The notes below the pieces were generated by a model that was given only the letters and a program-made list of their open reading frames with translations, searched no databases and was not told the origin of the DNA. A DNA stretch of 64,000 nt from a virus (lineage: Duplodnaviria > Caudoviricetes), in IMG/VR virus record IMGVR_UViG_3300009108_000480; one strand, given 5' to 3'. Within the stretch, counting starts at the first letter, position 1; each line of letters opens with the position of its first letter. A program made the position numbers and the translations under genes. Positions 12,036-13,114 of the stretch are shown here, in pieces.

Positions 12036-12254
12036 CTAGAAAAAAGGTTGACCGGTTTTTTTGGTAGTTTCCATGTTTTCTTTTACCAATTGAGCCACTA
12101 TTTGCCGTTCTGTGGGGGACATTGCCGCGGCTTCTGAATACGTAACTCCTCCACGCATAAACCAACATACTTTAAAAAGATCATGTCGTAATGCTTTAGT
12201 TTCATCTTCCATCTTTTTTAATGTGATAATAATGTCAGATTCCGATTGTGACAA
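12036..12254 (-). CDS. gp51-like tail/baseplate assembly chaperone, probably the -1 frameshift extension of the upstream gene
   Basis: CWFMRGGVTYSEAAAMSPTER motif; only a TTG start without Shine-Dalgarno; its frame is open back through the slippery site. Confidence 0.65.
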   Translation of the reverse strand: MSQSESDIIITLKKMEDETKALRHDLFKVCWFMRGGVTYSEAAAMSPTERQIVAQLVKENMETTKKTGQPFF

Positions 12255-12259
12255 TAATG

Positions 12260-13114
12260 TTATACGAAAAAATTTGCAGTATCAAATGTTACCGGCACTT
12301 CATAAGTGACAGGAGCGCCTTTTTTGATCTGCTCATCGGTTGCTTTCAATTTAATAGGTTTAACTGCACCTTGAGATCTTAATTCAATCAATTTATCTTG
12401 TAATTCTTTTATTAGTACTGCATTTGCGTTTTCTACAAACTCTTTTATTTGTGCCGGATCTGTAACTTCAGCACCTTCAGTTGTTGTTATTTTAGAAATA
12501 TTTTTTAATAATATGGTATGGCTTAATTCTGTTAATGCTTTGAAACTTTCATTAAATCTTTTTACTTTCTCTTCCGGTGCCATGTCTGTATTTTGTACTG
12601 TTGAATATAATTTTTGTTGAGTAAATGTTTTAAGAGCAGTAGTAGTCATGTCTTTATATGTTAAAGGCCTTACTGCAATTTTTAATCCATCTTTTAATTC
12701 AATATCATTGTTTACCTCCGTAGTTTTAATTTGCTCTAACAATGCTGGTAAGTTTAATGTATGCGATGCTTTTTCGGTTGTTCCAGGAACATTAAAATTA
12801 ATATCCATAGTTTCACCATATGTGGCAATACGTATTGCTATTAATATTGTATCTAAATCATAATTGCTTATTTGCCATGCATCTTTAATTTCTGGAATAC
12901 AACTCTGGATTACATCTACCATGCCTTGACCATTCATTAATGCATCTGGTGTTTTAAATATAATTTCATCGCGAGCAGTCATTGGTTGTACACCTACCTC
13001 TCCTGTTTGAGATGGTATTAATATGTGTGGAGGATAATTTCCACCCGAAGGTAACGTAACAAATACAGCAGGCTGTCTAAAATACTTGTTTAATGGGTTT
13101 GCGTTTTCTGGCAT
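12260..13114 (-). CDS. gp26-like baseplate hub / tail assembly chaperone
   Basis: NPLNKYFRQP...PMTARDEI...DLDTILIAIRIATYGE pattern; divergent from the tape measure gene. Confidence 0.75.
   Translation of the reverse strand: MPENANPLNKYFRQPAVFVTLPSGGNYPPHILIPSQTGEVGVQPMTARDEIIFKTPDALMNGQGMVDVIQSCIPEIKDAWQISNYDLDTILIAIRIATYGETMDINFNVPGTTEKASHTLNLPALLEQIKTTEVNNDIELKDGLKIAVRPLTYKDMTTTALKTFTQQKLYSTVQNTDMAPEEKVKRFNESFKALTELSHTILLKNISKITTTEGAEVTDPAQIKEFVENANAVLIKELQDKLIELRSQGAVKPIKLKATDEQIKKGAPVTYEVPVTFDTANFFV
12266..12275 (-). promoter_or_regulatory. putative -1 programmed ribosomal frameshift site (A AAT TTT TTC)
   Basis: Two overlapping X-XXY-YYZ heptamers in the last codons of the gp26-like ORF; the -1 frame runs stop-free into 12254..12036. 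Confidence 0.7.

What the first reader, a model, noticed from the sequence alone, without database searches (positions are those of the whole stretch)
12036..12275. Lambda G/GT-type -1 programmed frameshift fusing gp26-like and gp51-like genes
Seen in sequence: the gp26-like ORF ends GCA AAT TTT TTC GTA TAA on the minus strand. This holds two overlapping canonical slippery heptamers, A-AAU-UUU (12275-12269) and U-UUU-UUC (12272-12266). The -1 frame reads TTT CGT ATA ACA TTA TTG TCA CAA... with no stop, straight into 12254..12036, which has only a TTG start and no SD. Slippage would give a 359-aa fusion (...DTANF-FRITLLSQSESD...) alongside the 284-aa protein. Established knowledge: long-tailed phages make tail chaperones G and GT by such a frameshift next to the tape measure gene, and the tape measure gene is adjacent here (divergent). 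T4 gp26 and gp51 are classically separate genes. Inference: this T4-like lineage uses G/GT recoding, which would tie gp26/gp51 to the G/T chaperone family. I see no strong downstream stimulatory hairpin.
Basis: partly seen in the sequence, partly recalled or inferred. Interest (0 to 1): 0.8.

Follow-up and report, generated by a model that had tools for sequence, protein, structure and literature searches.

The report
Frameshift in phage baseplate-hub chaperone gene
One baseplate-assembly gene of this uncultured marine T4-related phage very probably makes a 284-residue and a 359-residue protein, because some ribosomes slip back one base on a strictly conserved UUUUUUC, doing with one gene what phage T4 does with its two genes 26 and 51.

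Summary
The 284-aa gp26-like gene (12260..13114, minus strand; Pfam PF12322) ends AAT TTT TTC GTA TAA. The -1 frame then stays open for 76 codons, to 12036.

The signal is strongly conserved. All 121 frameshift-layout homologous loci I examined keep T_TTT_TTY in the same codon register. They include marine and freshwater metagenomic phages, the jumbo phages RaK2, 121Q, PA5oct and Atu_ph07, cyanophages, a pelagiphage and KVP40.

- The preceding residue varies, and so does the position of the zero-frame stop.
- The -1 peptide is under purifying selection from its first codon (pN/pS 0.36-0.41, against about 1 or more in the other frames).
- It has no conserved start codon.
- A_AAU_UUU is not conserved, so U_UUU_UUC is the working site.

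Five metagenomic phages, and T4 itself, lack the slippery run. Each carries two genes instead: a short one and a hard-wired long one. The 22 frameshift-type loci with long flanks each hold a single copy (Fisher p 1e-5).

No downstream RNA structure is conserved. No fold or sequence link to lambda G-type chaperones was found, so the likeness to G/GT is one of logic, not shown ancestry. No protein evidence exists.

I found no paper reporting this. This scan has already noted the same thing in about 97 other genomes.

The parts
12260..13114 (-). gp26-like baseplate-hub assembly gene. Its zero-frame product is 284 aa (the short form).
   Evidence: PF12322 T4_baseplate, E 5.9e-13, 49.4 bits against a cut-off of 24.5. 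phrog_150 'baseplate hub', E 1e-17. AlphaFold2 model with mean pLDDT 82.6.
12266..12272 (-). Slippery heptamer U_UUU_UUC in zero-frame register; the proposed -1 shift site.
   Evidence: T_TTT_TTY is kept in register in all 121 frameshift-layout homologous loci examined. Given a conserved x-Phe-Phe and each gene's own codon usage, the chance product over 27 representative loci is 1e-21.
12269..12275 (-). Overlapping heptamer A_AAU_UUU. It is present here but not conserved, and would give the same protein.
   Evidence: The preceding codon is AAT in only 23 of the first 41 loci, and varies further in the next 74.
12036..12266 (-). -1-frame extension of 76 codons plus stop, encoding the gp51-type C-terminal domain of the 359-aa long form.
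   Evidence: pN/pS is 0.36 in this frame, against 0.99 and 1.63 in the other two. For the first 18 codons, which lie before any ATG, it is 0.41. There is no conserved start codon: the window's TTG at 12254 is CTT, CTG, CTC or CTA in relatives. AlphaFold2 gives a three-helix domain, pLDDT 81.5. The profile-profile link to the cyanophage gp51 ORFs has P 1e-4, and those ORFs match T4 gp51 residues 204-241.
13158..13165 (-). TATAAATA, a match to the T4-type late-promoter consensus, 44 nt upstream of the gp26-like ATG.
   Evidence: Read from the sequence. The same octamer lies upstream of several other ORFs in the window. This is a consensus match only.
13196..15334 (+). Divergently transcribed 712-aa gene, a probable tail tape-measure protein.
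   Evidence: phrog_167 'tail length tape measure protein', E 9e-10. The homologous neighbour in RaK2 is annotated as tape-measure-like, and the one in PA5oct as a structural protein found by MS. There is no BLASTP similarity to T4 gp29.

Best explanation
A late-transcribed gp26-like gene is translated in two ways.

Most ribosomes read ...AAU UUU UUC GUA UAA and release a 284-aa protein. A minority slip back one base, with tRNA-Phe in both the P site (UUU) and the A site (UUC) re-pairing on UUU UUU. They then read CGU AUA ACA ... for 76 more codons and release a 359-aa protein. This long form has the same N-terminal body plus a small three-helix C-terminal domain of the T4 gp51 type. No RNA stimulator is evident, so the shift is probably of low efficiency and sets a fixed short:long ratio.

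By analogy with T4 gp26 and gp51 ('hub assembly chaperones', with gp51 absent from the virion) and with lambda G/GT, the shared body would bind the hub or tape-measure complex, and the extra domain would recruit another assembly partner.

Shown here: the conserved signal, selection on the -1 frame, the lack of a start codon, and the complementary two-gene arrangement in phages without the signal.

Inferred: that ribosomes rather than RNA polymerase slip, the efficiency of the shift, and the chaperone function.
For: 1. T_TTT_TTY stands in the same register at the end of the gp26-like gene in all 121 frameshift-layout loci examined, in four sets:
- 22 IMG/VR relatives at 39-87% identity, plus Atu_ph07 and Phosso.
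- 11 jumbo phages, including RaK2, 121Q, PA5oct, GAP32, SCTP-2 and XacN1.
- P-SSM2, Syn9, S-PM2, HTVC008M and KVP40.
- 74 of 80 further IMG/VR loci.

2. This is nucleotide-level conservation, not merely conservation of Phe-Phe. L006 uses TTC for all 9 of its other Phe codons, and only 9% of its codons end in T, yet it keeps AAT TTT TTC. The chance product over 27 representatives is 1e-21.

3. The zero-frame stop lies 1 to 11 codons after the heptamer, and the zero-frame tail varies. Meanwhile the -1 peptide FFR-x-x-LL... is kept through synonymous changes.

4. pN/pS is 0.36 in the -1 frame, and 0.41 in the 18 codons before any ATG. In the other two frames it is 0.99 and 1.63.

5. No start codon is conserved. 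L019-L022 and Syn9 have no ATG until deep inside the domain.

6. T4 gp26 (residues 1-206) and T4 gp51 (residues 1-201) both match the full PF12322 profile. gp51 adds 48 C-terminal residues, and these match the cyanophage/KVP40 -1 ORFs: 12.8 bits at residues 204-241, reached by 0 of 2000 shuffles.

7. T4 holds two PF12322 genes. Nine frameshift-type phage genomes hold one each.

8. Natural hard-wired fusions exist: proteins of 319-357 aa with PF12322 followed by the extension, junction ..NFRxxIL... All 5 such loci also carry an adjacent short paralogue whose tail has no T-run, whereas 22 of 22 frameshift-type loci with about 8 kb of flank on each side hold a single copy. Fisher p = 1.2e-5.

9. 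T4 gene 26 keeps Phe-Phe but encodes it as TTC TTT.
Against: - There is no direct evidence for the 359-aa protein: no mass spectrometry, ribosome profiling or reporter assay.
- No conserved downstream structure was found. RNAalifold predicts 0 pairs, and the window's fold has a z-score of -0.17. There is no obvious upstream SD-like stimulator either. Efficiency could therefore be very low.
- U_UUU_UUC occurs by chance in this AT-rich genome, at 3 other in-frame sites.
- Transcriptional slippage on the T6 run cannot be excluded by sequence alone.
- The link between this clade's extension and T4 gp51 is indirect. The direct hhalign E-value is 0.033, and the link through the cyanophage ORFs has P 1e-4.
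- The loci share ancestry, so the 1e-21 product overstates their independence. Synonymous sites are, however, near saturation (pS 0.72).
Confidence: 0.87

Rival explanations
1. The downstream ORF is an independent small gene, translated from the TTG at 12254 or the ATG at 12212, perhaps by termination-reinitiation after the gp26-like stop. The T-run is only a by-product of a conserved Phe-Phe in an AT-rich genome.
For: GenBank annotates it this way in P-SSM2 (gp51, 57 aa), KVP40, Syn9, 121Q, BF and GAP32. Gene callers produce hundreds of 40-100 aa stand-alone calls. Many genes in this phage lack an SD motif, so the missing SD does not exclude initiation.
Against: - The candidate starts are not conserved. 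TTG is replaced by CTN codons in relatives, and several lineages have no ATG before the domain core.
- The codons between the heptamer and any start are under purifying selection in the -1 frame (pN/pS 0.41).
- The heptamer is kept in GC-richer genes that otherwise use TTC.
- Phages without the heptamer carry a fused long gene plus a short gene. This shows the domain works attached to the gp26-like body.
Confidence: 0.06
2. The long form is made by transcriptional slippage. The RNA polymerase deletes one U or adds two on the T6 run, and ribosomes then translate the edited mRNA normally.
For: The site is a homopolymer run. Three distant relatives have T7 to T9 runs (RAS14, XacN1, RsoM2USA). Sequence comparison cannot tell the two slippage mechanisms apart.
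Against: In 115 of 121 loci the run is exactly T6 followed by C. This is short for efficient polymerase slippage, which as far as I know needs about 8-9 residues. Selection for polymerase slippage should lengthen the run, yet T6C is held fixed in X_XXY_YYZ register.
Confidence: 0.05
3. It is a sequencing or assembly error, or a pseudogene. The true gene would be a single 359-aa ORF, or the extension would be a decaying remnant.
For: Homopolymer runs are error-prone, and single-ORF fused versions do exist elsewhere.
Against: The same frame break is seen in more than 110 independent assemblies, including finished genomes of cultured phages. The extension is under purifying selection. The fused versions have a different junction, with one Phe fewer, and always come with a second short gene.
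Confidence: 0.02

Closest known systems
Phage T4 gp26 (208 aa) and gp51 (249 aa), hub assembly chaperones (Leiman et al. 2010, PMC3004832, Table 2)
   Same: Same domain family: all three match PF12322. The short form ends at the same conserved Phe-Phe as gp26. The long form has the layout of gp51, a PF12322 body plus a C-terminal helical extension of about 50-76 aa, and the cyanophage/KVP40 extension matches gp51 residues 204-241. The paper states that gp51 is required for assembly but is absent from the particle.
   Different: T4 uses two separate, divergently transcribed genes and has no slippery site; gene 26 ends ..TTC TTT GAG TTA CTA TAA. Here one gene with a recoding site would give both forms. 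Sequence identity to T4 is very low, and T4 was not found by tblastn at E <= 1e-3.
Lambda gpG/gpGT and the conserved -1 frameshift of tail assembly chaperone genes (Xu, Hendrix and Duda 2004; reviewed by Atkins et al. 2016, PMC5009743)
   Same: A short and a long protein share an N-terminus through a -1 slip on an X_XXY_YYZ heptamer near the end of the upstream ORF. The gene has an assembly role and lies next to a probable tape-measure gene. The review says this frameshift is conserved among long-tailed phages 'except T4'.
   Different: No sequence or fold similarity was found. There is no Pfam tail-chaperone family hit, Foldseek gives nothing at E <= 1e-3, and VIA-align finds only a generic helical hairpin. 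The body is larger, 284 aa against about 140. The gene is divergent from the tape-measure gene, not immediately upstream of it. The heptamer differs: UUUUUUC against GGGAAAG.
Short 'gp51' ORFs of cyanophages and KVP40 (Sullivan et al. 2010, PMC3037559; GenBank notes)
   Same: The same small ORF lies directly after gp26. The paper notes that it is about 20% of the length of T4 gp51 and resembles its C-terminus. The KVP40 record notes similarity to 40 aa at the C-terminus of gp51. I find the same heptamer and -1 register there.
   Different: In those sources it is treated as a separate, shortened gene. No frameshift is mentioned in the passages I read or in the annotations.

Membership tests
Pfam PF12322 T4_baseplate (T4 gp26/gp51 family) | Match to the family profile above the curated cut-off | tested here: met
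   49.4 bits against a cut-off of 24.5, E 5.9e-13, residues 33-241. In Atu_ph07 the profile end (position 219) coincides with the zero-frame C-terminus.
Pfam PF12322 T4_baseplate (T4 gp26/gp51 family) | The long form carries the gp51-type C-terminal extension | tested here: inconclusive
   The direct profile comparison with T4 gp51 gives E 0.033, at residues 223-246. The link through the cyanophage/KVP40 ORFs is better: hhalign P 1e-4, and those ORFs hit gp51 residues 204-241 with 0 of 2000 shuffles reaching the score. Position and frame are identical.
-1 programmed ribosomal frameshift site (X_XXY_YYZ class) | Slippery heptamer in the zero-frame register | tested here: met
   U_UUU_UUC at 12272-12266.
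-1 programmed ribosomal frameshift site (X_XXY_YYZ class) | Heptamer and frame relation conserved among homologues beyond what the amino acids require | tested here: met
   Kept in 121 of 121 frameshift-layout loci. Codon-usage null product 1e-21 over 27 representatives.
-1 programmed ribosomal frameshift site (X_XXY_YYZ class) | The -1 ORF is coding and has no start of its own | tested here: met
   pN/pS 0.36, and 0.41 before any ATG. No start codon is conserved.
-1 programmed ribosomal frameshift site (X_XXY_YYZ class) | Downstream stimulatory hairpin or pseudoknot, or upstream SD-like element (common, but not obligatory) | tested here: not met
   RNAalifold on 17 sequences predicts 0 pairs. 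The window's fold has a z-score of -0.17.
-1 programmed ribosomal frameshift site (X_XXY_YYZ class) | The trans-frame protein is observed | not testable with these tools
   No proteomic or ribosome-profiling data are at hand.
Lambda G/GT-type tail assembly chaperones | Sequence or fold homology to gpG-like chaperones | tested here: inconclusive
   No Pfam tail-chaperone family at E <= 0.01. No PDB sequence hit. Foldseek pdb gives nothing at E <= 1e-3. VIA-align wide finds only the helical hairpin 150-205, Z about 8. BFVD rows named 'tape measure chaperone' and 'tail assembly chaperone' appear only at E 2.7-3.9.
Lambda G/GT-type tail assembly chaperones | Gene lies between the tail tube gene and the tape-measure gene, directly upstream of the latter | tested here: not met
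   The gene is adjacent to the probable tape-measure gene, but the two are divergently transcribed.
Lambda G/GT-type tail assembly chaperones | Both the short and the long form are needed | tested here: met
   This rests on comparison only. Phages without the slip site always encode both forms as two genes: 5 of 5 loci, plus T4.
Lambda G/GT-type tail assembly chaperones | Binds the tape-measure protein and is absent from the virion | not testable with these tools
   Known only for T4 gp51, which is not in the particle (PMC3004832). Nothing is known for this phage.

The most novel reading that the evidence does not exclude
The gp26/gp51 pair is the T4-superfamily counterpart of lambda G/GT, the one reported exception ('except T4') to the tail-chaperone frameshift. 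The frameshift would be the ancestral, majority state across T4-related phages: cyanophages, pelagiphages, KVP40-like phages and jumbo phages. T4's two genes, and at least two other lineages, would have arisen later by duplication and loss of two T's from the slippery run.
Probability: 0.55. Interest if true: 0.8.

Novelty: new variant of a known kind. Interest (0 to 1): 0.72.

Why it matters
- T4 is the textbook contractile-tail phage. [quoted passage not shown]
- Reading them as the short and long forms of one protein, made in most relatives by a conserved frameshift, gives a concrete model. The two forms share a binding body, the long form has an extra recruiting domain, and the ratio between them is fixed.
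- It would remove the stated exception of T4 to the general tail-chaperone frameshift.
- It corrects the annotation of hundreds of phage genomes. In these, the extension is called a separate hypothetical gene or a truncated 'gp51', is given an arbitrary start, or is missed altogether (as in RaK2, PA5oct and RsoM2USA).
- It can be tested directly in cultured phages.

Tried and rejected
- **A_AAU_UUU as the working site.** Rejected because it is not conserved.
- **A downstream stimulatory structure.** A small hairpin, UCGGA-N-UCUGA, about 18 nt downstream recurs in the closest relatives. It is weak, too far from the site and absent in other clades, and RNAalifold finds nothing.
- **A direct link from the extension to T4 gp51.** A single-sequence hhalign gave only a weak result. 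T4 gp26 gave none.
- **Pfam and PHROGs on the 72-aa ORF.** No family matched.
- **PDB sequence searches.** Nothing relevant.
- **Fold searches (pdb, pdb_via_wide, viral).** No informative match, and no gpG-like chaperone among the listed rows.
- **Tape-measure adjacency in KVP40 and Syn9.** PHROGs gave no tape-measure call for the genes that follow the gp51-like ORFs.
- **BLASTP of the 712-aa neighbour against T4 gp29.** No similarity.
- **The look-up of encoding contigs.** I used the search for related loci instead: a single-protein query found nothing, and the alignment query worked.
- **Literature.** Nine usable searches found no report of a gp26/gp51 frameshift. One further search failed on a short term.
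- **The window's own genome.** No whole genome is held for this window, so a second PF12322 gene elsewhere in this phage cannot be excluded. None was found in the 64 kb.

Full report
**What is there.** On the minus strand, a 284-aa ORF (13114..12260) ends ACT GCA AAT TTT TTC GTA TAA.
- It matches Pfam PF12322, 'T4 bacteriophage base plate protein', at 49.4 bits against a cut-off of 24.5. It also matches phrog_150, 'baseplate hub'.
- The -1 frame is open from 12279 to the stop at 12038-12036.
- A slip at either one gives the same 359-aa product: 283 zero-frame residues plus 76.

The window is a T4-related phage with 34% G+C. It holds a T4-type portal, gp46/gp47-like nuclease genes, a SegE-like homing endonuclease, and TATAAATA late-promoter-like motifs, including one 44 nt upstream of this gene. 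The divergent 712-aa neighbour is a probable tape-measure protein (phrog_167, E 9e-10). It shows no BLASTP similarity to T4 gp29.

**Is it more than chance?** The heptamer alone is not, because in-frame T_TTT_TTC occurs four times in 51 ORFs. The other three sites lie in mid-gene and meet a -1 stop after 1, 9 and 2 codons. Open -1-frame runs inside 23 long ORFs of the window have a median of 5 codons and a maximum of 60, and none reaches 76.

**Comparative test.** I collected homologous loci from four sources:
- 22 IMG/VR contigs at 39-87% protein identity, plus Agrobacterium phage Atu_ph07 and Sinorhizobium phage Phosso.
- 11 cultured jumbo phages: Vibrio 2.275.O, Serratia BF, 121Q, PA5oct, RaK2, GAP32, SCTP-2, RAS14, XacN1, RsoM2USA and 7t3.
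- P-SSM2, Syn9, S-PM2, pelagiphage HTVC008M and vibriophage KVP40.
- 80 further IMG/VR loci, found with the extension motif.

Every locus with the split layout (40 from the first three sources, the window itself, and 74 of the last 80) has T_TTT_TTC, or T_TTT_TTT in six distant ones, in the same register at the end of the gp26-like ORF.
- The codon before the heptamer codes for N, S, H, D, Y, R, A, V, T or G, but always ends in T.
- The zero-frame stop lies 1 to 11 codons downstream, and the zero-frame tail is not conserved.
- The -1 peptide begins FFR-x-x-LL in almost all loci.

I estimated the chance that x-Phe-Phe is spelled T_TTT_TTY from each gene's own codon usage. It is 0.01-0.36 per locus. 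The product over 27 representative loci is 1e-21. This overstates independence, but synonymous sites are near saturation. One relative, L006, uses TTC for all nine of its other Phe codons and still has AAT TTT TTC.

**The -1 ORF is coding but has no start.**
- Among 17 distinct sequences of the window's clade, pN/pS is 0.36 in the -1 frame, against 0.99 and 1.63 in the other two.
- For the first 18 codons after the heptamer, which lie upstream of any ATG in the window, it is 0.41, against 0.96 and 2.19.
- The window's TTG at 12254 is CTT, CTG, CTC or CTA in relatives.
- Several lineages (L019-L022, Syn9) have no ATG until inside the conserved CW(F/Y)MRGG core.
- The A_AAU_UUU heptamer is not conserved, so U_UUU_UUC is the working site.

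**Relation to T4.**
- T4 gp26 (residues 1-206) and gp51 (residues 1-201) both match the whole PF12322 profile, at E 9e-64 and 4e-52. They are therefore paralogues, and gp51 carries 48 extra C-terminal residues.
- T4 gp26 ends ..KEFFELL, at the same Phe-Phe as the window's short form. In T4 that Phe-Phe is spelled TTC TTT, which is not slippery.
- A profile of the -1 ORFs of the cyanophages, the pelagiphage and KVP40 matches T4 gp51 at residues 204-241 (12.8 bits; best of 2000 shuffles 9.0). It does not match gp26.
- The profile of this clade's extension aligns with the cyanophage profile at P 1e-4. It aligns directly with T4 gp51 only weakly, at E 0.033, but at the expected place.
- T4 has two PF12322 genes. 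Atu_ph07, 121Q, PA5oct, RaK2, P-SSM2, Syn9, S-PM2, HTVC008M and KVP40 have one each.

**A natural experiment.**
- A profile search of 1.84 billion representative proteins found 412 relatives of the extension. Most are 40-100 aa stand-alone gene calls. About twenty of the top 150 are 319-351 aa proteins with the extension at the very C-terminus.
- All eight of these that I checked have PF12322 in front.
- Their junction reads ..NFR(N/Q/S)(K/R)(I/L)L.., one Phe fewer than the predicted trans-frame ..NFFRITLL. This is what the loss of two T's from the run would give.
- In IMG/VR, six of the 80 loci (five distinct) are such fusions.
- Each of the five has a second, adjacent, short gp26-like gene whose tail has no T-run.
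- All 22 frameshift-type loci with about 8 kb of flank on each side have a single copy. Fisher p = 1.2e-5.

So phages either keep the slippery site and one gene, or lose it and keep two genes, as T4 does. This shows that both forms are needed and that the extension works attached to the gp26-like body.

On a tree of the N-terminal domains, the two-gene state appears in three places among frameshift lineages: T4, L048, and the L050-L054 group. The root is a midpoint root, and the T4 branches are long, so their placement is unsure. This suggests, but does not prove, that the frameshift is the older state.

**Mechanism.**
- tRNA-Phe in the P site (UUU) and the A site (UUC) can both re-pair on UUU UUU after a -1 slip.
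- No conserved downstream structure exists. RNAalifold predicts 0 pairs on 17 sequences, and the window's fold has a z-score of -0.17.
- A weak hairpin about 18 nt downstream is limited to the closest relatives.
- I therefore expect low efficiency, as in lambda G/GT; that comparison rests on my own knowledge.
- Transcriptional slippage cannot be excluded. The run is held at exactly T6C in 115 of 121 loci, which argues against it.

**Function.**
- T4 gp26 and gp51 are listed as hub assembly chaperones, and gp51 is required for assembly but absent from the particle (PMC3004832).
- AlphaFold2 models are confident for the 284-aa body (pLDDT 82.6) and for the extension, which forms three helices (pLDDT 81.5).
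- Neither model finds a known fold. Foldseek against the PDB gives nothing at E <= 1e-3. VIA-align finds only a generic helical hairpin. BFVD gives only small uncharacterised phage proteins.
- The likeness to lambda G/GT is therefore one of logic: a short and a long form, a role in tail assembly, and a gene next to a probable tape measure. Ancestry is not shown.

**Novelty.**
- Sullivan et al. 2010 noted that gp51 of cyanophages and KVP40 is only about 20% of the length of T4 gp51 and resembles its C-terminus (PMC3037559).
- GenBank records annotate it as a separate gene, or miss it altogether, as in RaK2, PA5oct and RsoM2USA.
- Nine literature searches found no report of this frameshift.
- The notes of this scan show that other agents reached the same reading on about 97 other genomes. 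I took from them the leads to two papers and checked both myself.
- One note named AAATTTT as the slip site in a close relative. My comparison does not support that choice.

**Limits.**
- There is no protein-level evidence.
- No whole genome is held for the window.

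Noticed in passing
window 10656-11108 (-): A 150-aa SegE-type GIY-YIG homing endonuclease (PF19835, E 5e-36) lies two genes downstream of the frameshift locus. Relatives such as 121Q, RaK2 and GAP32 have endonuclease VII in this neighbourhood instead.
   Followed up: no
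window, 24 long ORFs: Of 20 Phe-Phe dipeptides, none is spelled T_TTT_TTT, although TTT outnumbers TTC 431 to 67. When the preceding base is T, the first Phe codon is usually TTC. This looks like avoidance of longer slippery T-runs in coding frames.
   Followed up: partly
window 6165 (-), 51044 (+), 60152 (+): Three further in-frame T_TTT_TTC heptamers lie in mid-gene. Their -1 frames stop after 1, 9 and 2 codons, so they are probably incidental.
   Followed up: yes
window 11656-11982 (-): A 108-aa ORF directly downstream of the extension has only weak coiled-coil-type Pfam matches and no PHROG family. Its function is unknown.
   Followed up: no
window 17402-18028 (+): A 208-aa ORF next to the portal gene has weak matches to MptE-like and CST-I sialyltransferase-like families, and a match to phrog_30607.
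   Followed up: no
L048 7950-9890; L050 2358-4329; L051 7012-9017; L052 6900-8933; L054 7009-8909: Metagenomic phages with tandem short and hard-wired long gp26-like genes. In L048 the two copies are 42% identical, which suggests a more recent duplication than in the others (24-27%).
   Followed up: partly
L033 2271-2277, L034 2583-2589, L035 2568-2574: Stenotrophomonas phage RAS14, Xanthomonas phage XacN1 and Ralstonia phage RsoM2USA have T7 to T9 runs (T_TTT_TTT) at the site instead of T6C. The balance between ribosomal and transcriptional slippage may differ in these phages.
   Followed up: no
P0045: One copy of the extension ORF is deposited under 'MAG: Candidatus Marinimicrobia bacterium'. 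This is probably a phage contig binned into a bacterial MAG.
   Followed up: no
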